Positions 1 through 32,000 of a DNA stretch of 32,000 nucleotides are shown here, in pieces. This stretch comes from Candidatus Saccharimonas sp. (GTDB lineage Bacteria; Patescibacteriota; Saccharimonadia; Saccharimonadales; Saccharimonadaceae), in contig CP076101.2 of assembly GCA_015256915.3 (NCBI GenBank), positions 390,001-422,000 on the forward strand, in the 5' to 3' direction. Below the pieces are notes generated by a model that saw nothing but the letters and a program-made list of their open reading frames with translations, ran no database searches and was not told where the DNA came from. Position numbers and translations under genes: made by a program. Position 1 is the first letter of the stretch, and each line of letters starts with the position of its first letter.

Positions 1-1002
1 CTGCCCAGCGCGACCAATTGCAACACTTTGTTGATCTTCACTCACAAGCACAGTTGCTCGTTTGCGTTCGTTTTCACCAGTTTCTTTAATTTGAACTTCA
101 ACAACTTCTGCAGGACTTAACGCCTCACGGATAAATTCGCTTGGGTTTTCGCTCCAAGTTACAATATCAATTTTTTCACGTTCACCAATTTCATTCATAA
201 CAGATTGAACTCGCACACCACGACTACCAACAAAAGTTCCAACTGGATCAACACCGTTCATAATTGAACGAACCGCCATCTTAGTTCGGCGACCAGCCTC
301 ACGAGCAATAGCCACAATTTCAACCATTCCAGTTTCTAGTTCTGGCACTTCTTGTTCGAAAAGAATTTCAACGAATTTAGCATCTGCACGTGAAAGAATC
401 AACTCCGGTGCACGACCTTCACGTTCAATTTCTTTAATAAGAACTTTAATCCGCTGGCCAACACTAAAATATTCACCATTAATTTGTTCGCGGAGTGGCA
501 TAACTCCATTTGCTTTTCCTAAATCAATTCTCACAAATCGTTGGTCAATTTTCGAAACCGAACCACTTACGATAGTACCAACTTTATCTTCGAATTCTTC
601 AAGAATAATCTCACGTTCAGCTTCACGGAGTCGTTGCAAAACAACTTGCTTAGCAGTTTGGGCGGCCACACGACCAAAAGTTTCAACTGGGAATTTCTCT
701 TCAACAATTTCGCCAATTTCAGCATTTGCATCAAGTTTTTTTGCATCTTCAAGAGAAATCTCGTTATTAATATTATAAGCTTCTTCGCCGTCAACAACTT
801 CATATTGAACAAAAACTTCAGCATCACCAGTTTGAGTATTTAGCTCTGCTCGAACATTTTGGTCACGATTTCCGTTCTCGCGTCGCCAAGCAGCCGCAAT
901 CGCCATTTCAATAACTTCTAAAACTTTTTCTTCTGGTAAATTTTTTTCAGCTGCAATTGTTTTTGCCGCCAACATCATTTGTTTAATATTTAAATCTTCC
1001 AT
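1..1002 (-). CDS. nusA: Transcription termination/antitermination factor NusA, first ~334 codons (gene runs off the left edge of the window)
   Basis: Absent from the supplied ORF track because it is open at the window edge. My minus-strand translation from ATG 1002..1000 reads MEDLNIKQMMLAAKTIAAEKNLPEEKVLEV...GRVAAQTAKQVVLQRLREAERE...PELILSRADAKFVEILFEQEVPE...VDPVGTFVGSRGVRVQSVMNEIGEREKIDIV. These are the NusA N-terminal, S1 and KH hallmarks. There is no in-frame stop down to position 1. Confidence 0.85.
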   Translation of the reverse strand, partial: MEDLNIKQMMLAAKTIAAEKNLPEEKVLEVIEMAIAAAWRRENGNRDQNVRAELNTQTGDAEVFVQYEVVDGEEAYNINNEISLEDAKKLDANAEIGEIVEEKFPVETFGRVAAQTAKQVVLQRLREAEREIILEEFEDKVGTIVSGSVSKIDQRFVRIDLGKANGVMPLREQINGEYFSVGQRIKVLIKEIEREGRAPELILSRADAKFVEILFEQEVPELETGMVEIVAIAREAGRRTKMAVRSIMNGVDPVGTFVGSRGVRVQSVMNEIGEREKIDIVTWSENPSEFIREALSPAEVVEVQIKETGENERKRATVLVSEDQQSVAIGRAGQ

Positions 1003-1030
1003 TTTATCCTTTCGAAATAATTTCTTATGA

Positions 1031-1053
1031 AAAATGCCGACCTGGTGGCCGAC
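1031..1053 (-). terminator. Strand-specific hairpin plus U-run between recG stop and nusA start (recG terminator and/or nusA leader attenuator)
   Basis: The minus-strand RNA is GUCGGCC-ACCA-GGUCGGC (1053..1036, 7 bp including two G.U pairs) followed by AUUUUU (1035..1031). On the plus strand the wobble pairs become C.A mismatches. Confidence 0.4.
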
Positions 1054-1062
1054 TACCTTTCA

Positions 1063-1091
1063 ATTTTAGCACAATTTATTTTTTTCGTCAA
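1063..1091 (-). promoter_or_regulatory. Putative sigma70-type promoter for nusA
   Basis: TTGACG (1091..1086) - 17 nt - TAAAAT (1068..1063), preceded by TGC (extended -10). An AAAGGA SD lies 4 nt before the nusA ATG. Confidence 0.4.
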
Positions 1092-1095
1092 GCTT

Positions 1096-3147
1096 CTAAT
1101 TTAATAAAGTTAATCTTTGGTATTTTTCAAGTGATTTTGGCTTTTCTCTCAAATATTCTTGCCAATATTTTTGATTTTCGAACAAAAAATCCACCGCAGA
1201 TTGTGCTCGCGAAATCATTTTTGTGTCACCGATACTTGCGAATTCCAGATTAATTTCTCCACTTTGTGCCTTGCCGTAAATTTCACCAGCACCACGAAGT
1301 TCTAAATCCTTTTCCGCCAAAATAAATCCATCATTGGTTTTCGAAATTTCTTGGAGCCTCTGTGGCGGTTTTGCATTTGAGCTCATTACAAGATAACAAA
1401 AAGCATCACCACCACCACGACCAACTCGCCCACGAAGCTGATGAAGCTGTGCTAAACCAAAACGATCCGCGTTCTCAATAACAATTACACTCGCATTCGG
1501 AACGTTAATTCCAACTTCAATAACGGTAGTTGAAAGCAGAATATCAGCTTTTTTTGCCAAAAAATCTGCCATTATTTGCTCTTTTTCTTCCGACTTCTTT
1601 TTACCATGAAGCTGTAAAATTCTAAATTCCTTAAAATCACGCTTTAATCGTTTAAATTCTGCCTCAACACTTTTAATTTCCTCGTTTTTTCCTTCTTGAA
1701 TTGCCGGAACAATTACAAAAACTTGCCGTCCATTCGAAATTTCATCTCTAATCCTTGCATTCATCGGCGCACGAGAAGCTGGTGAGATGATTTCAGTTTG
1801 AACTGGCTTTCTCCCTTCAGGCTTTTCTTTCAATATTGAAATACTCAAATCACCAAAAAGTGTTAATTGTAACGATCTTGGAATTGGCGTAGCAGTCATT
1901 GCAAGTAGATGTGGCATTTTTTGGTGAGATTTTTCAAGAATTTTTTGCCTTTGAGCAACACCAAAACGGTGCTGTTCATCAATAATCACCAAACCGAGAT
2001 TCAAAAAATCCACTTTTTCTTGAATGATCGCACTCGTACCGACTAAAATATCAAGATTACCATTTTTTAGATTTTCGAAAAGTGTTTTACGAGCCTTTCC
2101 TTTTACCTTTCCTGAAAGAAAGCCAATCGAAATACCACACCAAGCCAAAGTTTTTGAAAAATTTTCAGCTAATTGCTGTGCAAGAATTTCAGTTGGCGCA
2201 AAAACTGCCACTTGATAACCATTTTTTACCGCATTTAATGCCGCAATTGCCGCCACGGTTGTCTTTCCGGAACCAACATCGCCTTGCAAAAGCCGGTTCA
2301 TCGGAAAATCCTGACTCATATTTTGCATAATCTCCCAAGAAGAAAGCCTTTGCGATTGCGTCAAATCAAAAGGTAGCTTTCCAACAAATTGCTTCACATC
2401 TTGGATTTTTGGCTTGATATTGTATCCACGAAGTTGCTCATTTTCAATTTTATTTAATTTTGCAGCCAAAATTAGCTCAAAAATTTCATCAAAAGCAAGC
2501 CGTTCAAGTGCTAGATTAAATTCTTCTGCCGAACCAGGAAAATGCACCCATTCAATTGCTTGTGCGCGTGAAATTAGTTCTTCTTTTCGAACAATAATTT
2601 CAGGCAAAGTTTCAGGCAGAATCTTCATCATTGGTTTTAATTCTGTTAAAATTTTTCGAATTGTTTCAGTTTTTAAACCTTTTTTTTGCGGGTAAATCGG
2701 TACAATTTCTCCACCTTTACCTGAAAAATTTTGATTTTTTGGCAATTCTTCGCGCTTCATTAAACTTGGATTCGTAATTTGATAGCGATTATAGTTAAAA
2801 TCATACTTTCCTGAAAAGAAAAATTCTTCTTCATCTTGAAGCTGTTTTACGCGGTATGGCTGATTAAACCAAATTGCTTTAATTTTATCTTTCCCGTCAG
2901 TTAAAATTGCCTCGGTTATTGTCATTCCACGCCGAACTCGACGCATCGAAACTTTTTCGGCATGAGCTTTAAAAAGAACCTTCCCTGGTTTAATCTCACT
3001 TAAACTAGTTAAACTTGCAAAATCCTCATATTTTCGTGGAAAAAACTCCAAAATATCACCAACAGTTCGCAAATTAACACTTTCGAGTTTCTCGAGAGTT
3101 TTTTCACCAACACCCTTTACCAAACCTAACGAAGAATTTAAATTCAT
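1096..3147 (-). CDS. recG: ATP-dependent DNA helicase RecG
   Basis: 683-aa ORF with ATG start. Motifs: Walker A GDVGSGKT, DEQH box (IIDEQHRFG), TATPIPRS, QLRGRVGRG motif VI, and an N-terminal wedge/OB-like region. Confidence 0.95.
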   Translation of the reverse strand: MNLNSSLGLVKGVGEKTLEKLESVNLRTVGDILEFFPRKYEDFASLTSLSEIKPGKVLFKAHAEKVSMRRVRRGMTITEAILTDGKDKIKAIWFNQPYRVKQLQDEEEFFFSGKYDFNYNRYQITNPSLMKREELPKNQNFSGKGGEIVPIYPQKKGLKTETIRKILTELKPMMKILPETLPEIIVRKEELISRAQAIEWVHFPGSAEEFNLALERLAFDEIFELILAAKLNKIENEQLRGYNIKPKIQDVKQFVGKLPFDLTQSQRLSSWEIMQNMSQDFPMNRLLQGDVGSGKTTVAAIAALNAVKNGYQVAVFAPTEILAQQLAENFSKTLAWCGISIGFLSGKVKGKARKTLFENLKNGNLDILVGTSAIIQEKVDFLNLGLVIIDEQHRFGVAQRQKILEKSHQKMPHLLAMTATPIPRSLQLTLFGDLSISILKEKPEGRKPVQTEIISPASRAPMNARIRDEISNGRQVFVIVPAIQEGKNEEIKSVEAEFKRLKRDFKEFRILQLHGKKKSEEKEQIMADFLAKKADILLSTTVIEVGINVPNASVIVIENADRFGLAQLHQLRGRVGRGGGDAFCYLVMSSNAKPPQRLQEISKTNDGFILAEKDLELRGAGEIYGKAQSGEINLEFASIGDTKMISRAQSAVDFLFENQKYWQEYLREKPKSLEKYQRLTLLN

Positions 3148-5380: not shown

Positions 5381-5457
5381 TTTTCTCCTTAAATTAAAGC
5401 GTTCGAAAAGTTATTTTTAGGTCGGATTCTTCGAACAAGTAATATTTTAGTATTCTT

Positions 5458-5486
5458 ATTTTATCAAATTTCAAGTTTAAAGTCAA
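5458..5486 (-). promoter_or_regulatory. Putative rnj promoter with ~70-80 nt leader
   Basis: TTGACT (5486..5481) - 17 nt - TAAAAT (5463..5458). The leader carries two TTCGAA sites (5402, 5429). Confidence 0.5.
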
Positions 5487-5488
5487 AT

Positions 5489-5509
5489 AAAAAAGAGCCC
5501 GTGGGGCCC
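5489..5509 (-). terminator. Short GC hairpin plus U6, terminator of the 264-aa orphan gene
   Basis: Minus-strand RNA GGGCCC-CAC-GGGCUC (5509..5495, 6 bp, 3-nt loop) followed by UUUUUU (5494..5489). Confidence 0.45.
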
Positions 5510-5513
5510 TAAA

Positions 5514-6305
5514 TCATAAGCGTGAAGCACGGTATCTCTCAATTAAGCTGAACTCATAGCCTTTTTTAGTAAGAGCCTTATAAGCTCTTTTTAGATCCTT
5601 CTTCAAATTATTGTCAAGCTTTCTAATTTCAGTTTTCGAGCACAAAATTGAAGAAAGACCGCGATAGATTATCTTATCAAGATGAGAATTACATCCTCTT
5701 ATAAATTGGTCGATAGACCATTTGTAATTGCTACTTATAATAATCACAAAATTTATACCATAGGTATTGTATCTTTCACAGATACTCAACCCCGTGAAAT
5801 ATATATTGTTCATGAGCCTTTCAATTTCAATTTCACTTTCACTTTCGCTTTCACTCTCAATTTCACTCTCAATTTCGCTTTCACTCTCACTAGCTAACCT
5901 ATCAACAATAGGTCTTAAGGAGTGGAGAATTACCACAGATTCCTCAAATCCAAGCTGATCATCTTGCGTGATCAAATTGATAATATTTCCAGCAATAGCA
6001 GATGCCATTTGCTTTGGAGTATTTAGGATGCTTTTGTCAACCGCTTCAGAAAACCGCCTCTTGAAACTTTCCAGAAAATTCAAAACTTTTTCTAATTTTT
6101 CTCGATCTTCATCGTATTCCTCACTATATTCAACATTGCTATGGAATTCTGCCGCAATTGTTAAAATAGTCTCTAACTCTTCAATATCGCAGTCTTTAAT
6201 CGCCGCCAAAGCCATCTTAACATCTGAAACTAATGGGTAAAGATACAATTCGCCCTCACAATAATTTCTACTTTCCTCTTTAAAAAGAACTTCATATAAT
6301 AACAT
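5514..6305 (-). CDS. Hypothetical acidic cytoplasmic protein with an internal (S/I)E dipeptide-repeat linker; no recognisable domain
   Basis: The track ORF 5514..6368 is trimmed to ATG 6305 (MLLYEVLFKEE...), because GGAGGT lies 7 nt upstream and a consensus promoter sits inside the longer ORF. 263 aa. No signal peptide or TM segment after trimming. Confidence 0.6.
   Translation of the reverse strand: MLLYEVLFKEESRNYCEGELYLYPLVSDVKMALAAIKDCDIEELETILTIAAEFHSNVEYSEEYDEDREKLEKVLNFLESFKRRFSEAVDKSILNTPKQMASAIAGNIINLITQDDQLGFEESVVILHSLRPIVDRLASESESEIESEIESESESESEIEIERLMNNIYFTGLSICERYNTYGINFVIIISSNYKWSIDQFIRGCNSHLDKIIYRGLSSILCSKTEIRKLDNNLKKDLKRAYKALTKKGYEFSLIERYRASRL
5822..5893 (-). repeat. Imperfect hexanucleotide-periodic tract encoding ASESESEIESEIESESESESEIEIE
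   Basis: Plus-strand units are TTCACT/TTCGCT/CTCAAT. There is a perfect 12-nt tandem duplication, TCACTCTCAATT x2, at 5851-5874. Confidence 0.8.
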
Positions 6306-6339
6306 TTTTGTTACCTCCAAAAATATATAGAATATAAAT

Positions 6340-6368
6340 ATTATACCTATTTTTACATTTTTTGTCAA
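6340..6368 (-). promoter_or_regulatory. Perfect-consensus sigma70 promoter of the 264-aa orphan gene
   Basis: TTGACA (6368..6363) - 17 nt - TATAAT (6345..6340), followed by a ~30-nt leader with GGAGGT. Confidence 0.6.
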
Positions 6369-6600
6369 TTGTAAATTCCCTACTCAGCAAGCAAAGATAT
6401 ATAAACTATTCTAAAGAAACAAGAAAAATGATAAACAAAGAATAAAAGCAATCCTTCGAGTTTTAGCAAGATAAAGACCTAACCCTTTTATATTGTTAAA
6501 AAGGTAGGTTTTAATAAAATATCTCTTTTTTTGCATAAAAATACGCTTCTAAAGTCCTTTTGTAAACTATGAATTAAAATATGTTATACCAGATTTTCAA

Positions 6601-6630
6601 AAAAAGAAGACCCCGCATAATTAGCAGGGC
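6601..6630 (-). terminator. Rho-independent terminator of the 4-TM orphan gene
   Basis: Minus-strand RNA GCCCUGC-UAAUUAU-GCGGGGU, then CUUCUUUUU. One pair is G.U, which becomes a C.A mismatch on the plus strand. Confidence 0.6.
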
Positions 6631-6672
6631 TTTAGATGAAAAAACTTACAATCTTTGATGAGCGAACTCAAC

Positions 6673-7389
6673 CTATTCTTCAATGACATAATTGCCATTT
6701 AAAGAAAATTCTAATGCATTATCATTGTCAACTCTTGGAGAAACATTATAGCGCATTCTTGCTTTTGTTCTAATGAAACAGCGGATTGCCCAGAGGTAAA
6801 ACTCCATAAGAACCCATAAACCTGCGACAATAATAAGCGATATTTTGTCTGGCTGACTTTCAACTATTAAAAGCATTGTTGCTATGAGCAATAAAGTTAA
6901 AGCAAAAGCTAAATGAGAAAAATAAAATCTAATTGCGAATTTATTTATCTCTTCGAAAGCTCTCTTTTCAAAGCTACAATCTCTTTTCTCCACTTCCGTG
7001 CAGTTCTTATGCGACTCAGCTTTTTTATTATAAACCCACATCCAGTTGGCTATTAGCCTTTTTTTAATGTTGAGAATTCCCTCACCGAAGAAGTATAGCT
7101 TAAAGATCGGGAAATTAGCAACGATCGTTATGGTCGTTAAGCTTGCAAATATTAATACCGATAAAAGATCATAATTCTGACTGATTTTTTCGAATATTAA
7201 TAAAACAATCAAAATCAAAAACCATATAATAAGCGCAATTTTTAGCCACAGATTATCAATAAATACCTTATTGATAATATAGTCCTTTTTTGGAAAATTA
7301 AATTCACGAATTTCCTTCGTGCTTAATTTAATTTCCTCATTTTTGCTAGTATCCAAGTTTTTCATCGTTACGATTTTTGAAATCTTCAT
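6673..7389 (-). CDS. Hypothetical integral membrane protein (two TM hairpins, 4 predicted TM helices); no recognisable family
   Basis: The track ORF 6673..7425 is trimmed to ATG 7389 (MKISKIV...), which has GAGGTGG 6 nt upstream. Hydrophobic stretches: LWLKIALIIWFLILIVLLIF, LLSVLIFASLTTITIVANFPIF, LAFALTLLLIATMLLIV, ISLIIVAGLWVLMEFYLWAI. Confidence 0.6.
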   Translation of the reverse strand: MKISKIVTMKNLDTSKNEEIKLSTKEIREFNFPKKDYIINKVFIDNLWLKIALIIWFLILIVLLIFEKISQNYDLLSVLIFASLTTITIVANFPIFKLYFFGEGILNIKKRLIANWMWVYNKKAESHKNCTEVEKRDCSFEKRAFEEINKFAIRFYFSHLAFALTLLLIATMLLIVESQPDKISLIIVAGLWVLMEFYLWAIRCFIRTKARMRYNVSPRVDNDNALEFSLNGNYVIEE

Positions 7390-18534: not shown

Positions 18535-20052
18535 TTACAACCTTTCGCGAATCAATTTTTGCGCCAAAGCCGGATTTGCCTTACCTTGCGATTTTTTCAT
18601 AATCTGACCAACCAAAAAGCCAATTGCTTTATCGTTGCCACTTCGAATATCCTCAATCGCTTTTTGCGAAGCCACATCACTCATTACTTCATCAACAATT
18701 TTCGCAATTTCGCCTTCATCAGAAACTTGGAGAAGATTCATATTCTCAGCGATTTTTTCTGGCATGAATCCTAAATTATCATCATCAAACATCGCCAAGA
18801 AAATTTGATGACCGCCATTTGAACTAACTTTTTTCTCATGAACCAAATGAGCGAGAAGAGCTAGTCTACGAGGACCAAGATAACCTTTGTAGAGTTTCTC
18901 TAAATCAAGCTCTTCGCTTGGAGTTGAAGCAAACCAGTTGAAAATTCGCTTCATGTTTTCTTTATGCTCTTCAAGAGTGTAGCCCTCGATTTCTGCAGAA
19001 TTATAGAGTTCAATTTGAGATTTTTCCCAAGGACCATCACCCCAAGTTGCAAGGAGTAGTTCAGCGATTCGATAATCGCTCAAGGCGTACTCAACCACAG
19101 AGCTATCAAGCTCGAAAACACTAAATTTTTCACGGAAATAATCTGGCATAATTGGAAATTGTGCTTGCATTTTCAAAATTTCTTCATCATTCAAAACAAT
19201 CGGTGGAATATCTGGATCAGGCATATATCGGTAATCTTGAGCCTCTTCTTTGCTTCGTTGCGAAACTGTTTTTTGCTCGTCGTCAATCCAACCACGAGTC
19301 TCCTGCTTAATTTTTTCACCTTTTTCAAGCAATCTCACTTGGCGTTCAAATTCATATTGAGCCGCTCGTTCAACACTTCGAAAACTATTTAAATTCTTAA
19401 TTTCAGTTCGCGTTCCAAGCTTTTCATCACCGATTTTTCGCGCTGAGATATTCACATCAAAACGCATATTCCCTTGATATAAATCACCATTTGTAACATC
19501 TGCAAAAACCATTCGCTTATGAAGCTCTTCAGCATAAGCGCGCGCCTCTTCAGCCGAATGAATATCAGGCATTGACACAATTTCGATTAGAGGTGTTCCG
19601 GCTCGATTCAAATCAACTAAAGAATGATCACCAAAATGAGTGAGTTTTCCAGCATCTTCTTCGAGATGAGCATGCTCAATTCGAACTTTTACTTCACCGC
19701 CGCTAGGAAGTGGTGCAATAATCTCACCCTCACCAATAATCGGCTGATAAAGCTGTGAAGTTTGATAACCTTTTGGTAGGTCTGGATAAAAATAGTGTTT
19801 TCGATCAAAACGACTCACATTGGCAATTTTTGCGTTCAGCGCTTTTCCAGCTCGTACGGCTAGACGGACCGCCTCTTTATTTAAAACTGGCAACATTCCA
19901 GGCAAACCAAAATCAATTGGCGAAGTTGCTTCATTTGGTAATTTTTCTCGTGAATCGTTATCACTTCCACTAAAAAGCTTGGTTTTAGTTTTTAGCTGAA
20001 CATGACATTCAATCCCAATTGTCATTTCATATTTTTTAAAAATATCTTCCAT
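18535..20052 (-). CDS. gatB: Asp-tRNA(Asn)/Glu-tRNA(Gln) amidotransferase subunit B
   Basis: 505 aa. N-terminal YEMTIGIECHVQLKTKTKLF, GLPGMLPVLN, and a C-terminal GatB/YqeY-like tail. Confidence 0.95.
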   Translation of the reverse strand: MEDIFKKYEMTIGIECHVQLKTKTKLFSGSDNDSREKLPNEATSPIDFGLPGMLPVLNKEAVRLAVRAGKALNAKIANVSRFDRKHYFYPDLPKGYQTSQLYQPIIGEGEIIAPLPSGGEVKVRIEHAHLEEDAGKLTHFGDHSLVDLNRAGTPLIEIVSMPDIHSAEEARAYAEELHKRMVFADVTNGDLYQGNMRFDVNISARKIGDEKLGTRTEIKNLNSFRSVERAAQYEFERQVRLLEKGEKIKQETRGWIDDEQKTVSQRSKEEAQDYRYMPDPDIPPIVLNDEEILKMQAQFPIMPDYFREKFSVFELDSSVVEYALSDYRIAELLLATWGDGPWEKSQIELYNSAEIEGYTLEEHKENMKRIFNWFASTPSEELDLEKLYKGYLGPRRLALLAHLVHEKKVSSNGGHQIFLAMFDDDNLGFMPEKIAENMNLLQVSDEGEIAKIVDEVMSDVASQKAIEDIRSGNDKAIGFLVGQIMKKSQGKANPALAQKLIRERL

Positions 20053-20465
20053 TAAATTGCTCCTAAATCTTTCAAAGCTTGTTTAAAACTATTCATCGCT
20101 CGGCGAGTTTGGTCGAAATTAATTTGTGCGTCATTCTCATGAGCGACTACATTTCGAAGTTTGTGGGCGTGCCAAATTGAATTCGGGCTTGAAAATTTAT
20201 CTTTCGAATTTTTCAGCCGCTCGCCCATCGTTTGACCAGAAATTTGAAGCTCCCGCATCGCCGTATCAACAAGTTTATCGGCATTAATTAAAGCCAAGTG
20301 CCAAGTTGCAGGTTCATCTTTTTTAATCGAATTTTCTATTTTTAGCCAATCACCCTGAAACTTTAATTTATCAAGTTGTATTTTTTCAGTTTTTGTAATT
20401 CCGATAAAGAAAAACAAAAGACCAGCGCAAATCAAAATAGAAACCGAAAGAATGACTAGATCCAT
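20052..20465 (-). CDS. Membrane-anchored protein with HEPN-like Rx4H motif, inserted between gatA and gatB
   Basis: 137 aa. TM segment LVILSVSILICAGLLFFFIGI, then a helical domain ending in WHAHKLRNVVAHE (R-x4-H). TAATG overlaps with both gatA and gatB. Confidence 0.6.
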   Translation of the reverse strand: MDLVILSVSILICAGLLFFFIGITKTEKIQLDKLKFQGDWLKIENSIKKDEPATWHLALINADKLVDTAMRELQISGQTMGERLKNSKDKFSSPNSIWHAHKLRNVVAHENDAQINFDQTRRAMNSFKQALKDLGAI

Positions 20466-21865
20466 TAGTTTTTCTCCAATTCGTCAGCCAAAGCCAGAAT
20501 TTTTGCGTCCGATTTCATCTTTCCAATAATTTGCACACCAACAGGTAGACCATTTTCAGTTTTACCAGCCGGAACAGAAACAGCAGGAAGTCCAGCAAGT
20601 GAAGCTGGTACGCTCAAGATATCAGCTAGATACATTTTTACTGGGTCATGAGCATTTTCACCAATTTTAAACGCAGGGGTTGGCGCAACAGGGCCAACCA
20701 AAAAATCAACTTCTTCGAAAAGCTTATTAAATTCGTCGATCAAAAGAGTGCGAGCTTTTTGTGCTTTCAAATAATAAGCATCATAAAATCCACTTGACAA
20801 AACATATGAGCCAATCATGATTCGGCGTTTATTTTCAGCTTCAAAACCTTCATCGCGAGACTTACCAAAAACCTCACCCAAGTCTTGAGCATTTTCTGAA
20901 CGTAAGCCATAGCGAATTCCATCATATCGCGCTAAGTTTGAAGAAACCTCAGCTGGAACAATAATATAATAGATAGCGAGCGAATACTTACTCATCGGTA
21001 GAGAAACCTCCACAATCTCGTGCCCAGCTTTTCGCATTTTATCAATATAATCTTCAGTTATTTTTCGAACTTCCGAGTCAACCCCTTCACTAAGGAATTC
21101 TTTAACTACTCCAATTTTTGCCTTTTTTGAAACTTGCTCTTCTTGCCAAAAATCAGGCAAAGTCATTGCATCACGCGCGTCAAGACCAGCCATAATGCGC
21201 ATTACAAGGTCACTTTCTTTAGCAGTTTTTGCAAAAACACCAACCGTATCAGTTGAAGAAGCCATTGCTACTACACCAAATCGTGAAACCGTACCATAAG
21301 TTGGCTTTATACCATATACACCGTTAAAGCTTGCCGGCTGACGAATTGAACCGCCAGTATCAGTTCCAAGCGCAAAAGGCACGATGTTAAGAGCCGTAAT
21401 TACCGCCGAACCACCAGATGAACCACCTGCAACTCGAGTTTCATCAATTGAGTTTTTAGTTACACCAAAAGCTGAGTTCTCGGTCGATCCACCGTGAGCA
21501 AAAGCGTCTAAGTTTGATTTTCCAATACAAATCGCACCAGCTTTTTCAAGTTTTTCAATCGCAGTAGCCTGAATTGGTGTTTCGAAATCTTTCAACATTT
21601 TACTCGAAGCCGTCGAAGGTGAACCAAACACCAAAAAATTATCCTTCGCCACAAAAGGAACACCTGCAAGCTCACCAACTTCTTTACCTTTTGAAATCTT
21701 ATCATCAATTTCTTGCGCTCGTGCTAAAGCTCGCTCTTCGGTCAAGCTCGTAAAAGCATTGAATTTTTCAGTATTTTTTGCCTTCGAAATAGCTTCTTTA
21801 ACAAAATCAACTGCAGTCTTCTTTCCAGATAGAACTTGTTCTCTAATTTCAAAAATATTCGTCAT
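20465..21865 (-). CDS. gatA: Glu-tRNA(Gln)/Asp-tRNA(Asn) amidotransferase subunit A
   Basis: 466 aa. Amidase signature GGSSGGSAV and GTDTGGSIRQPA. AGGAG SD. Confidence 0.95.
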   Translation of the reverse strand: MTNIFEIREQVLSGKKTAVDFVKEAISKAKNTEKFNAFTSLTEERALARAQEIDDKISKGKEVGELAGVPFVAKDNFLVFGSPSTASSKMLKDFETPIQATAIEKLEKAGAICIGKSNLDAFAHGGSTENSAFGVTKNSIDETRVAGGSSGGSAVITALNIVPFALGTDTGGSIRQPASFNGVYGIKPTYGTVSRFGVVAMASSTDTVGVFAKTAKESDLVMRIMAGLDARDAMTLPDFWQEEQVSKKAKIGVVKEFLSEGVDSEVRKITEDYIDKMRKAGHEIVEVSLPMSKYSLAIYYIIVPAEVSSNLARYDGIRYGLRSENAQDLGEVFGKSRDEGFEAENKRRIMIGSYVLSSGFYDAYYLKAQKARTLLIDEFNKLFEEVDFLVGPVAPTPAFKIGENAHDPVKMYLADILSVPASLAGLPAVSVPAGKTENGLPVGVQIIGKMKSDAKILALADELEKN

Positions 21866-21872
21866 AATTCTC

Positions 21873-22166
21873 CTACAAAACCTTTGGGACTTTTACCTGA
21901 TTATCTTCAACATTCTCACCCGCCAACTTTAAAAGCTCATCTCGTTTTACACCATAATCATCAATTTCATCTTCTCGCCAAACATTTTGATTTTTCGAAA
22001 CCGAATAAGTTGGTTTAACGCCATCTGTATTTAATTGGCTAAGTTGCTCAATATATTCAACAATATTTCCCAAATCAGTTTGAAGATTCGAAATTTCTTC
22101 TTCACTTAGCGAAATACTAGAAAGCTCCGCCAAGTGTTTAACTTCGTCTTTTGATATTTTTTCCAT
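21873..22166 (-). CDS. gatC: Amidotransferase subunit C
   Basis: 97 aa. The size, its position directly upstream of gatA, and the LAELSSISLSEEEISNLQTDLGNIVEYIEQL pattern fit GatC. Confidence 0.85.
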   Translation of the reverse strand: MEKISKDEVKHLAELSSISLSEEEISNLQTDLGNIVEYIEQLSQLNTDGVKPTYSVSKNQNVWREDEIDDYGVKRDELLKLAGENVEDNQVKVPKVL

Positions 22167-22173
22167 ACACTTA

Positions 22174-22202
22174 AGTATATCACTTTTCGAAAAATTTTTA
22201 AA
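22174..22202 (-). promoter_or_regulatory. Possible gatC promoter, leaderless configuration
   Basis: TTTAAA (22202..22197) - 17 nt - TATACT (22179..22174), then 7 nt before ATG 22166, with no SD. Confidence 0.35.
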
Positions 22203-22203
22203 G

Positions 22204-22226
22204 TAAAAACTCCCAAAAACTGGAAG
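22204..22226 (-). terminator. Weak hairpin plus T-run downstream of the 69-aa ORF
   Basis: Minus-strand RNA CUUCCA-GUUUU-UGGGAG (one G.U pair), followed by UUUUUA. Confidence 0.35.
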
Positions 22227-22235
22227 TCTCTAAGT

Positions 22236-22445
22236 TTATTTTTTCTTAAGTTTTTCGATTCGTTGATTTAGCTCGTTTATTAAATTCATTTGATTTACAT
22301 TAATTTCACCCGAACTCTTAATATCGTTATTAATTCTTTGGTGAAGAAAAATTACTTCAGTCGAAAGAATTAAATTCCAAACAACAAACAGAATAACTAC
22401 AACTATCTTAAGGAAACTCTTGTCTTTTTTGCTAATAAATTTCAT
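22236..22445 (-). CDS. Small hypothetical membrane protein with C-terminal coiled-coil-like tail
   Basis: 69 aa. TM segment FLKIVVVILFVVWNLILSTEVIFL. AGGAG SD. The ATG lies 7 nt after the uvrB stop. Confidence 0.5.
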   Translation of the reverse strand: MKFISKKDKSFLKIVVVILFVVWNLILSTEVIFLHQRINNDIKSSGEINVNQMNLINELNQRIEKLKKK

Positions 22446-22452
22446 GAATCTC

Positions 22453-24429
22453 CTATTTCACCATCTTTTTCCGAATATCCGCAATCTGATCTCGCAAATC
22501 CGCCGCCTCCTCAAAAAGCAAATTCGCGCTAGCAAGATTCATTTGATTTGTTAAATCTCGCACCAAATTTTCCCACTCTTCACGAGGAATTTTCCTTAAA
22601 TCCAATTTTGGTTTTTTATCTTTTTGCGGAATGATCGCACGCAAACCTTCACCAATCTCACTAGCCACACTTTTTGGCGTAATTCCATTTTTGAAATTAT
22701 ATTCTTGTTGAATTTCTCGCCGCCGATTTGTTTCATCAATTGCGATCTTCATTGAGCGTGTAATTTTATCAGCATACATAATCACATTGCCGTCTTCGTG
22801 CCGAGCTGCCCGCCCAATTGTTTGAATCAACGCACTTTCTGAACGCAAAAAACCTTCTTTATCAGCATCCATAATTGCTACCAATGAAACTTCTGGCAAG
22901 TCCAGCCCTTCACGCAAAAGATTAATTCCTACCAAAACATCATAAACGCCGCTGCGCAAATCACGCAAAATATCACCACGCTCCAACGTGTCAATTTCGC
23001 TATGAATATATGCTGTTTTCACACCATTTTCTTCTAAAAATCCGCTCAAATCTTCAGCCATTCGCTTGGTTAAAGTTGTTACTAAAACACGCTGGTTCTT
23101 CTGAATTCGCTTTCGAATTTCTTCCATCAAATCATCAACTTGACCTTCAATTTTTCGAACTTCAATTTTAGGATCAAGCAAACCTGTTGGGCGAATTACC
23201 TGCTGAGCTGGTTTTGGCGAATGTTCGAGTTCAAAATCACCAGGAGTTGCTGAAACATAAATCGCCTGATTGATATGTTTATAGAATTCTTCGAAAGTTA
23301 GCGGCCGATTGTCTAGTGCTGACGGTAAACGAAAGCCATTATCCACTAAAACTGTTTTGCGAGCACGGTCACCATTAAACATTCCACGAACTTGTGGTAA
23401 AGTCATATGAGATTCATCAACTAAAAGCAAAAAATCATCAGGAAAATAATCAAGCAAAGTTGCCGGCTGCTCACCAGCTGAACGCTCAGTTAAATAACGC
23501 GTGTAATTTTCAATACCTTTAACAAAACCAGTTTCACGGAGCATTTCAAGATCATATTTAGTGCGCTGTGTTAGGCGTTGAGCTTCCAAAAACTTCTTAT
23601 TTTTTTCGAAATATTCATGGCGTGCATAAAATTCCTTCTCAATTTGCGGAATTGCACTCTCAATAATTTCCTTTGGTGTAGCATAATGTGAATTTGGGAA
23701 AATATCAAAAAACTGTGGCTTTTCTAGAATTTCGCCCGTAAGTGGATTCAATATAATTAAGCGGTCAATTTCATCGCCGAAAAATTCCACTCGCACTGCC
23801 AGATCTGAGCCAGCCGTAAAAATATCAACCGTATCGCCACGAACCCGAAAAGTTCCACGTGCAAAATCTACATCATTTCGCTCATATTGAATATCTTTTA
23901 GATGTCGCAAAAACTTCTCTCGGTTATATCGCATTCCAGGCTTAATATGAAGCGCCATTTGCATATAACTCGCCGGCGAACCGATACCATAAATACAGCT
24001 CACACTCGAAACAATAATTGTGTCACTTCGAGTTAAAAGCGCCTCGGTTGCGGCGTGCCTAAGTTTCTCGATTTCTTCATTAATTCGCGAATCTTTCTCG
24101 ATGTATGTATCTGTGCTGGCAATATAAGCTTCGGGCTGATAATAATCAAAATAGCTCACAAAATAATGAACTTCATTTTCAGGAAAAAACTTTTTAAATT
24201 CACTGTAAAGCTGTGCGGCAAGAGTTTTATTATGCGCCAAAATTAAAGTCGGCTTTTGAACTGCTTGAATAATATTCGCCATTGTAAAAGTTTTACCCGA
24301 ACCAGTCACACCAAGCAAAGTTTGCTCACGCTCACCTTTTTTCAAACCGTCAACTAATTGCGAAATTGCTTGGGGCTGATCTCCAGTGGGATGATATTTT
24401 GATTTTAATTTAAACTCGCGATATTTCAT
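22453..24429 (-). CDS. uvrB: Excinuclease ABC subunit B
   Basis: The track ORF is trimmed to ATG 24429 ([22 protein letters not shown], the canonical UvrB N-terminus). Walker [13 protein letters not shown] box (LLVDESHMT), and a C-terminal UVR motif [16 protein letters not shown]. Confidence 0.95.
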
Positions 24430-24438
24430 TATTTCTAT

Positions 24439-24447
24439 TTTATAACA
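24439..24447 (-). promoter_or_regulatory. Extended -10 element upstream of uvrB, near-leaderless
   Basis: TGTTATAAA (24447..24439), then 9 nt before ATG 24429, with no SD. Confidence 0.4.
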
Positions 24448-24457
24448 TATTTTGTTA

Positions 24458-24486
24458 AAAAGCAAAACCGCCCAAATTGAGCGGTT
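24458..24486 (-). terminator. Terminator of the gap...LOG operon
   Basis: Minus-strand RNA AACCGC-(9-nt loop)-GCGGUU, followed by UUGCUUUU. Confidence 0.55.
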
Positions 24487-24490
24487 GGCC

Positions 24491-25099
24491 TTATCCATTT
24501 CCAGCACGTTTTTCTGAAAGATGTTCATCATCTTGTGGTGCAATAAAATCTGCATTTTTTTCATCTAGTCGTGCAATCACTTTTCGAACGAGCCGTTCCG
24601 GGTTATTATCATAAATGATATCTTTCGTTCCTGGCGCTTCAACATTTTGAAGAAGTGTTGGAACATAATCTGCTAAAGCAGTGCTTCCGAGCAAAACACC
24701 ACAAACCTTGCGAGATTCTAAAGCAGTCGCAAGTTCATGAAGCGAGCCCATTCGACCACCAACCGTAATCACCGCATCACTCGAAAGAACCAAATGTGTA
24801 TCACGCCCAACATAACTCATTCCCGTAAAATTAATATAATCAAAAGGCTTAAACGGTAATTTATAAGTATTTACATGCTGCCGAAAACTTGAAGCCGGCG
24901 AAAAACCAATACTTAATCCCGTTCGCCCCTTAACGCTCACTGCGCCCAAAGCTGCGTGGTGCGGTAGGCCAACCGTTGCACCAGTTGTTAGAATTTTCCC
25001 CTGCCGAACAATTTCTTGCCCGAGCCTAAAAGCTAAATCTCGTGAAGCTAAAACACTATCACCCGTTGCCGCTCCCGAAACACAAATTTGATATCTCAT
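24491..25099 (-). CDS. LOG/TIGR00725-like Rossmann-fold protein (putative nucleotide 5'-monophosphate nucleosidase family)
   Basis: 202 aa. [10 protein letters not shown]-terminal glycine-rich strand, and [14 protein letters not shown] resembling the LOG PGGxGTxxE motif. AAGGAG SD. Confidence 0.65.
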
Positions 25100-25109
25100 T
25101 TTTCTCCTT

Positions 25110-25562
25110 TTAAAATAATTTTTCTTCTATTTGCTTGATTGAATAATTTGAAAATTCCTGCTGATATTTTTCAAGAATTTGTTGTTTTAATTCTTTTTCG
25201 AAAAAAGTTTTTGAATGTCCAGCCAAATTCATTATTCTTTTATTTTTTTCAACATCTTTTTTGTTTGCTGAAACCAAACCATCTTCCGCGAAAAATATTG
25301 CATTGCCAAATTCAGCCCAAAATTCTTCATCATTCAGATGATTAACTAAAGCCGAAAAAGCTTCAATCATCAAAATACTATCACCAGAAAACCCCAGCCT
25401 TTTCTCAATATTATGTGATTTTCGATACAACTCCGCCATAATTTGAGCTGAAACACTCTTTAATTCTGGTTTTTTAGCTTCCATTTTCGAAACACCAAAA
25501 TCAAATTTTCTTGCATAAGCACCACTCAATCCGAGTAATTCCGAGAGTTTATAACTTCTCAT
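25110..25562 (-). CDS. Hypothetical 150-aa protein (unrecognised; N-terminus faintly HTH-like)
   Basis: The ATG overlaps the pfkB-kinase stop (ATGA). No TM segment. It is embedded in the operon between the kinase and LOG-like genes. Confidence 0.5.
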   Translation of the reverse strand: MRSYKLSELLGLSGAYARKFDFGVSKMEAKKPELKSVSAQIMAELYRKSHNIEKRLGFSGDSILMIEAFSALVNHLNDEEFWAEFGNAIFFAEDGLVSANKKDVEKNKRIMNLAGHSKTFFEKELKQQILEKYQQEFSNYSIKQIEEKLF

Positions 25563-31044: not shown

Positions 31045-31050
31045 ATATTA

Positions 31051-31078
31051 ATTATACACTTTTTTTGATAAAAGTAAA
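31051..31078 (-). promoter_or_regulatory. Putative rel promoter, leaderless configuration
   Basis: TTTACT (31078..31073) - 16 nt - TATAAT (31056..31051), then 6 nt before ATG 31044, with no SD. Confidence 0.45.
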
Positions 31079-31112
31079 GCTTTTACATTTTTAGCAGAAT
31101 TTCACTAAATAA

Positions 31113-31136
31113 AAACTGAGTATTTTTACTCAGTTT
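31113..31136 (-). terminator. Terminator downstream of ppa
   Basis: AAACTGAGTA (31113-31122) pairs with TACTCAGTTT (31127-31136) around the loop TTTT. T-rich sequence follows on the minus strand. Confidence 0.65.
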
Positions 31137-31151
31137 CCAATTTATTTATAA

Positions 31152-31682
31152 CTATTTTTCGTTCCAGCGAACAATCGATTCGGCAATAACTTCTTTTGCT
31201 TCTTCTATGTCGCCAAATTTCTCAACTTTTGTTGTGCCAGCTTTTTTCAAATCTTTGTAGTGATTAAAGTGAAATTCAATCTGTTTAATAAGTTGCTCTG
31301 GTAAATCAGCCAAAGTTTTATAAGCATTTCCAGTGTTACGGTCGTCGGCGGGAACGGCAATAATTTTGTCGTCAACTTCTCCATCATCAACGAATTTCAT
31401 TACACCTAAGATTCGTGCTTCTAGGAAAATTCCAGTTGTAAGTGGATCATTTGTAATAAGTAAAACATCAAGCTCATCGCCATCTTCATCCAAAGTTTGC
31501 GGAATAAAACCATAATTAGTTGGCTTTGCAAAAGCTTTTGGTTCCACGCGATCAAGTTGCATTACAGCCAAATCACGATTCCATTCAATTTTGTGAGTTG
31601 AGCCAGTTGGAATTTCCACCACAACATTAATAATTCCATTTTTATAATCACCAGGAGTTAAAATTTTATTAAAATCTGCCAT
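31152..31682 (-). CDS. ppa: Inorganic pyrophosphatase, family I
   Basis: The track ORF (TTG start at 31715) is trimmed to ATG 31682 (MADFNKIL), which has an AAGGA SD. Motifs DEDGDELDVLL and DDKIIAV. Confidence 0.88.
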   Translation of the reverse strand: MADFNKILTPGDYKNGIINVVVEIPTGSTHKIEWNRDLAVMQLDRVEPKAFAKPTNYGFIPQTLDEDGDELDVLLITNDPLTTGIFLEARILGVMKFVDDGEVDDKIIAVPADDRNTGNAYKTLADLPEQLIKQIEFHFNHYKDLKKAGTTKVEKFGDIEEAKEVIAESIVRWNEK

Positions 31683-31737
31683 ATTTTCCTTTCTTTTATT
31701 CTTTAATTTTAGCAAAAAAACTTTAAAAGTTCAACCG

Positions 31738-32000
31738 TTAATCACGATTAGCAAGCTTAACTAAACTATCTTCTACCGTTTTTTGAGTTCGATGGCGAGT
31801 TTGAGTTTTAGTTTTAGCTTTCGAATTCTGCTTAATATTTTTTGATTTTTTAGAAGATTCTTTCGTTTTTTTTCCGCCTGTTACATTTTTTAAAACTGGT
31901 GCTCGCCCTTTACTTTTTTGAGTCTCAACTTTCGAAACCTTAACACTAGCAGGTCGTGCAAACATCATCTTTCCTGCGGCAGTTTGAAGCGAACGAATAA
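31738..32000 (-). CDS. 3' end of an unidentified gene with a Lys-rich basic C-terminal tail (open to the right edge of the window)
   Basis: The frame stays open upstream of the track start (..IRSLQTAAGKMMFARPASVKV...). The tail is KSKGRAPVLKNVTGGKKTKESSKKSKNIKQNSKAKTKTQTRHR. Confidence 0.4.
   Translation of the reverse strand, partial: IRSLQTAAGKMMFARPASVKVSKVETQKSKGRAPVLKNVTGGKKTKESSKKSKNIKQNSKAKTKTQTRHRTQKTVEDSLVKLANRD

What the first reader, a model, noticed from the sequence alone, without database searches (positions are those of the whole stretch)
1..32000. Roughly nine-fold over-representation of the palindrome TTCGAA (often TTTCGAAA) across genes, reading frames and intergenic DNA
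A hand scan of the whole window finds about 97 TTCGAA sites, about one per 330 bp. With the base composition I estimate by eye (A and T about 0.32 each, C and G about 0.18 each), only about 11 are expected. One-base neighbours noted in the same scan (ATCGAA, TTCGAT, CTCGAA, GTCGAA, TTCGAG) occur only about 7-15 times each, which is near expectation. Of the first 26 sites, 12 sit in the 8-mer palindrome TTTCGAAA. Within a single gene (recG) the word is read in all three frames: TTC-GAA = FE in DFLFENQ (1187), ATT-TCG-AAA = ISK in QEISKT (1339), and ATT-CGA-AAA = IRK in ETIRKI (2656). This recruits TCG and CGA codons, which are not the obvious choices in an AT-rich genome. The word also occurs in non-coding DNA (1011, 3185, 3294, 5402, 5429, 22187). 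That argues for selection or a repair/mutational drive acting on the DNA word itself rather than on protein or codon usage. Palindromic hexamers are usually depleted (restriction avoidance), so enrichment is the unusual direction. Candidate explanations, all inference: an uptake-signal-like sequence in a competent, nucleotide-scavenging organism; the target of an orphan methyltransferase or nucleoid/segregation protein; or a short-patch-repair drive.
Basis: seen in the sequence. Interest (0 to 1): 0.7.

Follow-up and report, generated by a model that had tools for sequence, protein, structure and literature searches.

The report
Hyper-abundant TTCGAA palindrome in Saccharibacteria
One clade of tiny parasitic bacteria (Saccharibacteria) carries the 6-8 base palindrome TTCGAA/TTTCGAAA about every 330 bases, in genes and between them, and keeps it there; its nearest relatives avoid the same word, so this looks like a second case of the still unexplained "highly iterated palindromes" of cyanobacteria.

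Summary
The window has 97 TTCGAA sites against 10.6 expected from base composition, the highest ratio of all 4096 hexamers. It has 37 TTTCGAAA sites.

The excess survives every null I ran. A dinucleotide shuffle expects 23. A synonymous-codon shuffle expects 28 against 88 observed in genes.

Density is the same in coding and non-coding DNA and in all three reading frames. Synonymous codons are chosen by context to spell the word.

The window is chromosomal DNA of an AT-rich Saccharibacterium (TM7). The excess is specific to one clade. All 26 relatives with at least 85% RelA identity, and two further lineages, have 5-12 times the expected count. A sister lineage has zero sites in 21.5 kb, and other TM7 loci average 0.69 times.

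Inside the clade the sites diverge about three times more slowly than other synonymous positions. They are also spaced more evenly than chance. A block carrying them that recombined into a non-enriched lineage decays there at the background rate.

Word specificity is sharp at the hexamer and soft at the eighth base, as in cyanobacterial HIP1.

The best reading is a HIP-like word read by a clade-specific factor, probably a TTCGAA methyltransferase. No such gene was found in the 50 kb I could reach. Mechanism and function remain inference.

The parts
1..32000 (.). Field of 97 dispersed TTCGAA sites, 37 of them TTTCGAAA. Mean spacing is 329 bp, and sites occur in almost every gene and in intergenic DNA.
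   Evidence: The field continues at the same density about 9 kb beyond each end of the window in contigs of the same species.
1177..1182 (-). Site in recG read as TTC-GAA (Phe-Glu), frame 0.
1340..1345 (-). Site in recG read as xxT-TCG-AAx (Ser), frame 2.
2655..2660 (-). Site in recG read as xTT-CGA-Axx (Arg), frame 1.
5402..5435 (.). Two intergenic sites, at 5402 and 5430, between the RNase J gene and a hypothetical gene. They are examples of the 9 non-coding or partly non-coding sites.
5436..6951 (.). Largest site-free stretch (1522 bp between sites). It is a low-GC (31.7%) region holding an unannotated 284-aa ORF and the 3' end of a membrane-protein ORF.
18511..25131 (.). The gatB-gatA-gatC-uvrB block, with 17 sites. 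A copy 86% identical, with the same site density, sits inside the otherwise non-enriched L003 lineage and is not maintained there.

Best explanation
TTCGAA, preferably TTTCGAAA, is a highly iterated palindrome of the HIP type. One clade of AT-rich Saccharibacteria keeps its whole chromosome saturated with it, at about 3 sites per kb, spaced more evenly than chance.

Shown:
- The word is enriched as DNA, independently of frame or coding status.
- The enrichment is specific to one clade.
- Inside that clade the sites and about 3 bp on each side evolve roughly three times more slowly than comparable positions.
- The same sites placed in a related, non-enriched genome decay at the background rate.
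- The specificity profile has a hard edge at the hexamer and a soft preference for the outer T/A.

Inferred:
- The clade encodes a factor acting in trans that reads exactly TTCGAA. The most likely candidate is a type-II-like DNA methyltransferase, since the TTCGAA methyltransferases reported elsewhere make N6-methyladenine.
- The marked sites serve a DNA transaction that needs a mark near every position of the chromosome.
- My preferred version is that the sites tag conspecific DNA during natural transformation and recombination, as is now proposed for methylated HIP1. Strand discrimination in mismatch repair is the second option.
- Alleles that lose a site arise often, mostly by C-to-T change at the central CpG, and are removed later by selection or by biased conversion.
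For: DNA-level word.

Clade specificity:
- The window and its closest genomes show 8.4-9.2 times the expected count, and L004 shows 11.6 times.
- All 26 metagenomic relatives with at least 85% RelA identity show 5.3-10.4 times. The L149/L175 lineage shows 10.4 times. L154 and L155 (80% RelA identity) have zero sites, with 7.2 expected in L154's 21.5 kb, and TCGA at 0.26 times.
- Forty-one other TM7 loci give 145 observed against 209 expected.
- Under one dinucleotide null the clade is at 3.31 times and AT-rich relatives at 0.27 times.

Maintenance:
- Third-codon positions inside the motif differ at 5.3% against 16.7% background versus L002 (p = 0.005), and 5.4% against 16.8% versus L001 (p = 0.018).
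- The TT and AA positions of the motif show 2 differences in 272 positions, against about 6% background.
- The conserved footprint is confined to the motif plus about 3 bp on each side.

Natural experiment:
- The imported gatB-uvrB block in the L003 lineage has 2.57 sites per kb, against 0.46 in the rest of that locus.
- The pattern is reproduced in three further assemblies.
- Block sites there are conserved 24/39, against a background 6-mer identity of 0.51-0.62. In the enriched clade the figure is 34/39 against 0.68.

HIP1-like specificity: TTTCGAAA has 64 sites against 1.74 expected in 50 kb. One-off variants are 9.1 times expected at positions 1/8 but 1.2-1.35 times at positions 2/7 and 3/6.

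Regular spacing: CV 0.846 (P = 0.025). Gaps under 40 bp number 8 against 16 expected (P = 0.010). Counts per 2-kb bin have variance/mean 0.53.

Literature:
- TTCGAA methyltransferases reported so far are m6A (PMC5930826).
- HIP1 is conserved and associated with methyltransferases (PMC4390886, PMC5861425).
- Methylated HIP1 boosts transformation (10.1101/2024.09.10.611283).
- Saccharibacteria are naturally competent through ComEC (PMC10633639).
- DprA and RadA genes are present in clade loci.
Against: - No DNA methyltransferase, restriction enzyme or competence receptor was found in the window or in the roughly 18 kb of flanks I could read. The rest of the genome was out of reach.
- No modification data exist for this organism.
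- Conservation and even spacing are also predicted by a function-free, saturating repair ratchet (Elhai's model).
- Within the species (97% identity) motif columns vary about as much as background, 3.3% against 4.15%, and about 9 losses are seen against 1 gain. That could mean the word is currently eroding rather than being maintained.
- Sample sizes for the conservation contrasts are small, at 39-132 positions.
- Known uptake sequences are longer and not palindromic.
Confidence: 0.4

Rival explanations
1. The word is a function-free by-product of biased repair. A methyltransferase site used by, or interfering with, mismatch repair ratchets near-cognate sequences into the full word until the genome is saturated. 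This is Elhai's model for alternate HIPs. The word itself does nothing.
For: - The density saturates and is evenly spaced.
- The hard hexamer edge with a soft outer base matches the deviation pattern Elhai reported for HIP1 (PMC4390886).
- The word appears and disappears quickly between related lineages.
- Sites accumulate at positions of average constraint (L003 columns).
Against: - The published ratchet depends on a GmC signal, whereas the TTCGAA methyltransferases reported so far are m6A.
- One-off neighbours, including TTTGAA/TTCAAA, are not depleted as feeder words should be.
- The model cannot be separated from selection with these data.
Confidence: 0.2
2. The word is a classical uptake-signal drive without methylation. 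The DNA-uptake machinery binds TTCGAA-bearing DNA preferentially, and recombination of such fragments spreads the word, as with USS and DUS.
For: - The octamer density of about 1.2 per kb is typical of USS and DUS.
- Sites occur in all frames, are more frequent in less conserved genes, and raise the Phe-Glu dipeptide slightly (1.33-1.39 against 0.87-1.08).
- Inter-lineage recombination is documented.
- The phylum is competent (PMC10633639).
Against: - Known uptake sequences are asymmetric words of 9-12 bases with graded specificity. This one is a 6-8 base palindrome with an enzyme-like hard edge.
- The L003 lineage took in a TTCGAA-rich block without being enriched itself.
- No uptake sequence has been reported for Saccharibacteria.
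Confidence: 0.15
3. The word is the binding site of a nucleoid-associated or chromosome-organising protein, selected for regular coverage of the chromosome.
For: - The spacing is regular.
- A palindrome suits a dimeric binder.
- The two half-site flanks vary independently: 37 octamers observed against about 37 expected from the marginals.
- Xu et al. proposed this for HIP1 (PMC5861425).
Against: - No candidate protein was found.
- Nucleoid proteins rarely need an exact hexamer.
- Complete avoidance of TTCGAA and TCGA in a sister lineage points instead to enzymes of restriction-modification type circulating in this group.
Confidence: 0.1
4. The excess comes from a very-short-patch (Vsr-like) repair drive coupled to an m5C methyltransferase, which converts T:G mismatches in TTTGAA/TTCAAA to TTCGAA.
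For: - Almost all polymorphism at the sites is TTCGAA against TTTGAA or TTCAAA.
- CpG transitions inside the word are rarer (6-9%) than at other CpGs (12-13%).
Against: - The product words are not depleted (0.91 times).
- Conservation extends to the TT and AA positions, which such repair cannot protect.
- The predominance of CpG transitions is expected from synonymous constraints and the general CpG transition bias.
Confidence: 0.05
5. The excess is a compositional, codon-usage or repeat-element artefact.
For: Dinucleotide bias (TT/AA 1.34, CG 1.14, TA 0.61) alone raises the expectation 2.2-fold.
Against: - The count is still 3-4 times every null, with z of 13-15.
- No sequence is conserved beyond about 2 bases on each side.
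- Independent assemblies from ENA, Logan, GTDB and JGI give the same result.
Confidence: 0.02

Closest known systems
HIP1 (GCGATCGC) and alternate HIPs of cyanobacteria (PMC4390886, PMC5861425)
   Same: - An 8-base palindrome built around a 4-base and a 6-base palindromic core.
- Over-representation of tens of fold (octamer 33-37 times here).
- Dispersed in all frames and in non-coding DNA.
- Conserved between related genomes.
- One-off variants concentrated at the outer bases.
- Patchy, lineage-specific distribution.
- In my own control loci from Nostoc the HIP1 core CGATCG is 6-9 times over-represented, the same order as TTCGAA here.
   Different: - An AT-rich word with a central CpG, in a different phylum (Patescibacteria/CPR) with a genome of presumably under 1 Mb.
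- The cognate methyltransferases are known for HIP1 and unknown here.
- The hexamer itself is enriched here, whereas CGATCG outside HIP1 is reported as not particularly enriched.
- The 10-90 kb periodicity reported for HIP1 could not be tested on 50 kb.
DNA uptake sequences (USS of Pasteurellaceae, DUS of Neisseriaceae; PMC2817400, PMC3868556)
   Same: Genome-wide density of about one per kb, occurrence inside genes in several frames, a mild imprint on the proteome, clade specificity, and a naturally competent host group.
   Different: Those words are 9-12 bases and not palindromic. Their function as uptake signals is shown by experiment. No uptake test exists here.
Dam GATC with MutH in gamma-proteobacteria
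   Same: A methylated short palindrome that must lie near every position of the chromosome to serve as a strand mark.
   Different: From my own knowledge, GATC is only slightly over-represented in E. coli.
Dcm/Vsr word bias in E. coli (CCWGG up, CTWGG/CCWAG down; from my own knowledge, Bhagwat and McClelland 1992)
   Same: Over-representation of a methyltransferase target caused by a DNA-level process.
   Different: The companion depletion of the T:G-derived words is absent here.
CtsM-methylated RAATTY as a self-DNA mark for transformation in Campylobacter jejuni (from my own knowledge, Beauchamp et al. 2017)
   Same: A short AT-rich palindrome whose methylation by an orphan enzyme marks DNA as acceptable for transformation. 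This is the mechanism I favour here.
   Different: Experimentally shown there and purely inferred here. I do not know of a comparable over-representation analysis for RAATTY.

Membership tests
Highly iterated palindromes (HIP type) | Short palindromic word far more frequent than composition predicts | tested here: met
   TTCGAA is 9.2 times expected and ranks first of 4096 hexamers. TTTCGAAA is 33-37 times expected and is the top octamer in the window and in L004.
Highly iterated palindromes (HIP type) | Dispersed single copies in coding DNA (all frames) and non-coding DNA, not part of a longer repeat | tested here: met
   The three frames carry 25, 27 and 36 sites. Density is 3.02 sites per kb in coding DNA and 3.13 in non-coding DNA. 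Flanks return to background beyond about 2 bases.
Highly iterated palindromes (HIP type) | Sites conserved between related genomes more than comparable positions | tested here: met
   Third-codon positions differ at 5.3-5.4% against 16.7-16.8% background (p = 0.005 and 0.018). Intact sites number 34/39 against a background 6-mer identity of 0.68.
Highly iterated palindromes (HIP type) | One-base deviants concentrated at the outermost positions | tested here: met
   Positions 1/8 are 9.1 times expected. Positions 2/7 and 3/6 are 1.2-1.35 times.
Highly iterated palindromes (HIP type) | Cognate methyltransferase for the inner sequence encoded in the same genome | not testable with these tools
   There is none in the 50 kb I could reach. 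The rest of the genome could not be fetched.
Highly iterated palindromes (HIP type) | Non-random (periodic or regular) placement along the chromosome | tested here: inconclusive
   Spacing is mildly over-regular (CV 0.846, P = 0.025; short gaps 8 against 16, P = 0.010). Periods of 10-90 kb cannot be tested on 50 kb.
DNA uptake sequences (USS/DUS) | Hyper-abundant word at about one per kb, clade-specific | tested here: met
DNA uptake sequences (USS/DUS) | Asymmetric word of 9-12 bases with graded specificity | tested here: not met
   The word is a 6-8 base palindrome with a hard hexamer edge.
DNA uptake sequences (USS/DUS) | Preferential uptake or transformation by motif-bearing DNA, with a cognate receptor | not testable with these tools
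   Only phylum-level competence is known (PMC10633639). DprA and RadA genes were seen in clade loci.
Vsr/Dcm-type repair-driven word bias | Depletion of the T:G-derived one-off words alongside enrichment of the target | tested here: not met
   TTTGAA/TTCAAA are at 0.91 times the dinucleotide expectation, against 0.79 times in non-enriched relatives.
Restriction-site avoidance | Under-representation of the palindrome | tested here: not met
   The direction is the opposite in this clade. Avoidance is seen in relatives: L154 and L155 have zero sites and TCGA at 0.26 times, and other TM7 loci average 0.69 times.
Interspersed repeat elements (REP/MITE-like) | Shared sequence extending well beyond the core word | tested here: not met
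   The position-specific counts show background composition from position -3/+3 outward.

The most novel reading that the evidence does not exclude
TTTCGAAA is a methylation-dependent self-DNA tag for natural transformation and recombination in a lineage of the Candidate Phyla Radiation. It would be an independently evolved functional equivalent of cyanobacterial HIP1 and of uptake sequences. Related lineages carrying TCGA/TTCGAA restriction activity have purged the same word.
Probability: 0.2. Interest if true: 0.85.

Novelty: new variant of a known kind. Interest (0 to 1): 0.65.

Why it matters
HIP1 has been known for 30 years, and its function is only now being linked to methylation-dependent transformation. 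An independent instance would give a second, much simpler system for asking what iterated palindromes are for. This one has a different word, sits in a phylum with tiny genomes, and has sister lineages that lack or actively avoid the word.

There is also a practical side. Saccharibacteria have only recently become genetically tractable through natural transformation. If TTCGAA or its methylation marks acceptable DNA, adding methylated sites to constructs could raise transformation efficiency in this clade.

The word density is also a sharp genomic signature. It exposes recombination between lineages, as with the gatB-uvrB block.

Tried and rejected
- **Methyltransferase, restriction or Vsr gene.** I searched NCBIfam, Pfam and PADLOC on the window ORFs I scanned (24, including all of 200 aa or more) and on the flank genes. 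I also extended the window by about 9 kb on each side through contigs of the same species. Nothing relevant turned up. A lone GmrSD_C-type HNH protein and Ogt are the only nearby DNA enzymes. One look-up failed because my start codon for the pyrophosphatase was wrong.
- **Very-short-patch repair.** I tested it through depletion of TTTGAA/TTCAAA. With order-0 expectations these words looked enriched (2.25 times). That turned out to be the TT/AA dinucleotide bias. With a dinucleotide null they are at 0.91 times. So there is neither a halo nor a depletion.
- **A palindrome in every Saccharibacteria lineage.** Order-0 ratios hinted at CAATTG, GATATC and ATCGAT. Under a Markov-2 null none comes close to TTCGAA.
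- **Chi-like effect on nearby polymorphism.** SNP density is flat beyond 3 bp from the sites.
- **Phages sharing the signature.** A viral-contig scan gave two TTCGAA-dense contigs. Their dinucleotide signature differs from the clade's, and they have no phage homologues. They are not evidence about this clade.
- **The non-syntenic half of L175.** It holds only ribosomal proteins, DprA and fragments.
- **Literature.** I found no paper combining TTCGAA with Saccharibacteria, and no uptake sequence described for the phylum.
Full report

Yes, exactly. The window contains 97 TTCGAA sites and 37 TTTCGAAA sites. Base composition predicts 10.6 hexamers, a ratio of 9.2, the highest of all 4096 hexamers.

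Of 185 TCGA tetramers, 97 carry the T...A flanks. The other 15 flank combinations hold 0-14 each.

The excess survives stricter nulls:
- A dinucleotide-preserving shuffle gives 23.3 +/- 4.8, with a maximum of 37 in 300 shuffles.
- Markov orders 1-3 give 23.5, 38.7 and 48.1.

I defined 29 genes covering 91% of the window. Shuffling synonymous codons within each gene, which keeps every protein and each gene's codon usage, gives 28.3 +/- 4.6 against 88 observed. Permuting codons gives 20.1 +/- 4.5. For the octamer the figures are 5.8 +/- 2.1 against 32.

The only slip is one coordinate, 1177 rather than 1187.

**2. The force acts on DNA.**

Site density is 3.02 per kb in coding and 3.13 per kb in non-coding DNA. 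The three reading frames hold 25, 27 and 36 sites.

Codon choice depends on whether it completes the word:
- Phe is TTC in 16% of cases overall but 62% before GAA.
- Ser is TCG in 46% of T|TCN|AA contexts against 8.5% where neither flank fits.
- Arg is CGA in 77% of TT|CGN|A contexts against 6.5% of TT|CGN|not-A.

There is no conserved sequence beyond about two bases on either side, so this is not a repeat element. The -1 T (66/97) and +1 A (55/97) preferences are independent of each other.

Nearly every gene carries sites. Highly conserved genes (uvrB, gatB, rnj, gap) have about 1.9-2.0 per kb, and less conserved genes have 4-5 per kb. The Phe-Glu dipeptide is slightly raised in enriched lineages, with observed/expected of 1.33-1.39 against 0.87-1.08.

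**3. What the window is.**

It holds housekeeping genes: recG, RNase J, a CobW-like GTPase, pepN, a phosphomutase, PBP1A, tyrS, gatCAB, uvrB, pentose-phosphate enzymes, gap, relA/spoT and ppa.

The closest genomes are Saccharibacteria (TM7) MAGs labelled Ca. Saccharimonas and Ca. Nanogingivalis. The same species occurs in many public assemblies. Its flanks carry the word at the same density. A 49.9-kb composite has 148 sites, 2.96 per kb.

**4. The enrichment is clade-specific and the contrast with relatives is extreme.**

In genome loci around uvrB:
- The window, L001, L002 and L004 have 8.4-11.6 times the order-0 expectation.
- L003 has 3.3 times.
- Nearly all other TM7 loci are at or below 1.6 times; the one exception is a 4-kb locus with 3 sites (2.5 times). 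Forty-one other TM7 loci together give 145 observed against 209 expected over 774 kb.

In metagenome loci around relA:
- All 26 loci with at least 85% RelA identity have 5.3-10.4 times.
- The L149/L175 lineage, about 78% nucleotide identity to the window, has 10.4 times (nucleotide identity).
- The 83% group has 2.4-2.7 times.
- The 80% group (L154, L155) has no site at all, with 7.2 expected in L154's 21.5 kb, and TCGA at 0.26 times.
- More distant groups are mostly at 0-1.

Under one dinucleotide null the clade stands at 3.31 times and AT-rich relatives at 0.27 times. TTTCGAAA is the top octamer both in the window (33 times) and in L004 (37 times).

As a positive control for scale, the Nostoc and Anabaena loci fetched by the same search show the HIP1 core CGATCG at mostly 6-9 times.

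**5. The sites are maintained in the clade.**

Compared with L001 and L002 (90-96% nucleotide identity), third-codon positions inside the motif differ at 5.3-5.4% against 16.7-16.8% elsewhere (p = 0.005 and 0.018).

The TT and AA positions of the motif differ at 2 of 272 positions against about 6% background. The central CpG shows transitions at 6-9% against 12-13% for other CpGs. The slow-down covers the motif and about 3 bp on each side, and nothing beyond.

Nearly all changes that do occur are TTCGAA against TTTGAA or TTCAAA.

Within the species (97% identity) the picture differs. Motif columns vary about as often as background, 3.3% against 4.15%, and third positions vary at 7.4% against 9.8%. 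About nine losses and one gain can be polarised.

Frequent young losses combined with rare fixed losses is what purifying selection or biased conversion would give. The counts are too small for significance, and ongoing erosion is not excluded.

**6. A natural experiment.**

L003 is about 70-77% identical to the window, except for a 6.6-kb gatB-uvrB block at 86%. Seventeen of its 24 sites lie in that block, at 2.57 per kb, the same as the window's block. The remaining 15.4 kb has 0.46 per kb, 1.4 times expectation.

Three further assemblies of the same lineage show the same pattern, so this is recombination and not a chimeric contig.

Within that lineage the block's sites are conserved 24/39, equal to the background 6-mer identity of 0.51-0.62. 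In the enriched clade the figure is 34/39 against 0.68.

So the same sites are kept in one genomic background and drift in another. That argues for a clade-specific factor acting in trans rather than a property of the sequence itself.

**7. Shape of the specificity.**

In the 50-kb composite the octamer occurs 64 times against 1.74 expected. One-base variants are 9.1 times over-represented at the outer positions (that is, whenever the hexamer is intact). They are only 1.2-1.35 times at positions 2/7 and 3/6.

This hard hexamer edge with a soft outer preference resembles the recognition of a type II enzyme. It is also the pattern Elhai described for HIP1 relative to the CGATCG methyltransferase site (PMC4390886).

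Spacing is more regular than random. The CV is 0.846 (P = 0.025), gaps under 40 bp number 8 against 16 (P = 0.010), and counts per 2-kb bin have variance/mean 0.53.

**8. Mechanism.**

The data establish a word-level maintaining force that depends on the lineage. They do not identify the agent.

I favour a TTCGAA-reading enzyme, most simply a methyltransferase. Reported TTCGAA methyltransferases are m6A (PMC5930826), and the motif is also a methylation target in Halobellus limi (PMC7230728).

The marked sites could tag conspecific DNA in transformation and recombination. This is now proposed for HIP1 (10.1101/2024.09.10.611283; 10.64898/2026.06.24.733823). It fits a phylum shown to be naturally competent through ComEC (PMC10633639). 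Strand discrimination for mismatch repair is the second option.

A function-free repair ratchet (Elhai's model), a plain uptake-bias drive and a nucleoid-protein site remain viable.

The Vsr-type drive is the least supported. Its feeder words are not depleted, and it cannot protect the TT and AA positions.

No methyltransferase, restriction enzyme or Vsr gene lies in the 50 kb I could read. I could not reach the rest of the genome with the tools.

**9. Novelty and verdict.**

I found no paper that mentions TTCGAA together with Saccharibacteria, and none describing an uptake sequence in that phylum.

The phenomenon meets every testable defining feature of a highly iterated palindrome. The untested exceptions are the cognate methyltransferase and long-range periodicity. 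It fails the asymmetry and length criterion of classical uptake sequences.

I therefore file it as a new variant of a known kind: a HIP-like word with a new sequence in a new phylum. Sister lineages avoid the same word, which makes the system unusually suited to finding the responsible gene by comparison.

Noticed in passing
L154 and L155 (whole loci; 80% RelA identity to the window): There is no TTCGAA at all, with 7.2 expected in L154's 21.5 kb, and TCGA is at 0.26 times expectation. This is strong avoidance, as if a TCGA-type restriction system acts in this sister lineage. Unrelated AT-rich TM7 loci L058 and L038 also deplete TCGA (0.58 and 0.29 times).
   Followed up: partly
L003 9313-15920, corresponding to window 18511-25131; also L151, L152 and L159: A 6.6-kb gatB-gatA-gatC-uvrB block is 86% identical to the window inside a lineage otherwise about 72% identical. 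It carries the donor's TTCGAA density. This is evidence of homologous recombination between Saccharibacteria lineages.
   Followed up: yes
L054, L059-L064, L067, L069, L073-L076, L079, L080 (Nostoc and Anabaena loci): TTCGAA is absent in almost all of these loci (0 observed against about 7 expected in each). The HIP1 core CGATCG is mostly 6-9 times over-represented. The first point fits the TTCGAA restriction enzymes known from Nostocales (NspV, AsuII; from my own knowledge).
   Followed up: no
L004 (whole locus, 24 dispersed positions): A second over-represented palindrome, CGCGCG/GCGCGC, is about 14 times order-0 expectation and dispersed rather than tandem. TCGA in general is 3.5 times enriched in this lineage, unlike in the window, where only the TTCGAA form is enriched.
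   Followed up: partly
window 1-32000 and relatives L002, L003, L004: ACGT is strongly depleted (0.13-0.29 times order-0 expectation; AACGTT occurs once in the window). TpA is low (0.61), while CpG is not depleted (1.14).
   Followed up: no
window 18064-32000 compared with L001 and L002: CpG sites in general show about twice the transition divergence of other C/G positions (12-13% against 5.8%), although CpG is not depleted. I did not control for codon position.
   Followed up: no
L116 (IMGVR_UViG_3300044959_000237) and L127 (IMGVR_UViG_3300020567_000331): These viral contigs have 6-8 TTCGAA per kb (20-24 times expected). They have an unusual dinucleotide signature (CG 1.7-1.9, TA 0.27-0.40, TC/GA 1.54, GC 0.5-0.8) and long stop-free stretches in all six frames. 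They have no homologues among 50,697 phage records. Host unknown.
   Followed up: partly
L116 9178-11976: A 2.8-kb tandem array of roughly 24-base units contains the palindrome TTCCGGAA (consensus AAAATGTTCCGGAACATATCGGGT).
   Followed up: no
window 5431-6951: This is the longest TTCGAA-free stretch in the 50 kb examined. It has low GC (31.7%). It holds an unannotated acidic protein with Ser-Glu repeats, next to a multi-pass membrane protein with no family match. It may be recently acquired DNA.
   Followed up: partly
L088 4325-7022 (about 2-4.7 kb beyond the window's right end): A stand-alone GmrSD_C-type (HNH) protein of 225 aa lies between an RNase HII-YraN fusion and a 330-aa coiled-coil protein next to radA. 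The 330-aa gene aligns at the DNA level only among enriched lineages (window, L171, L149/L175). In L151, L154 and L157 a gene-sized gap remains in the alignment. It is either fast-evolving or lineage-specific.
   Followed up: partly
window 24491-24564: The longest uvrB ORF (703 aa from 24564) overlaps the upstream SLOG/LDcluster4 gene by 74 bp. Gene callers in related contigs start uvrB later (689-692 aa).
   Followed up: no
L015 165-2034: The high CGCGCG and GTGTGT counts come from simple-sequence runs near the contig end. This is not a dispersed word.
   Followed up: yes
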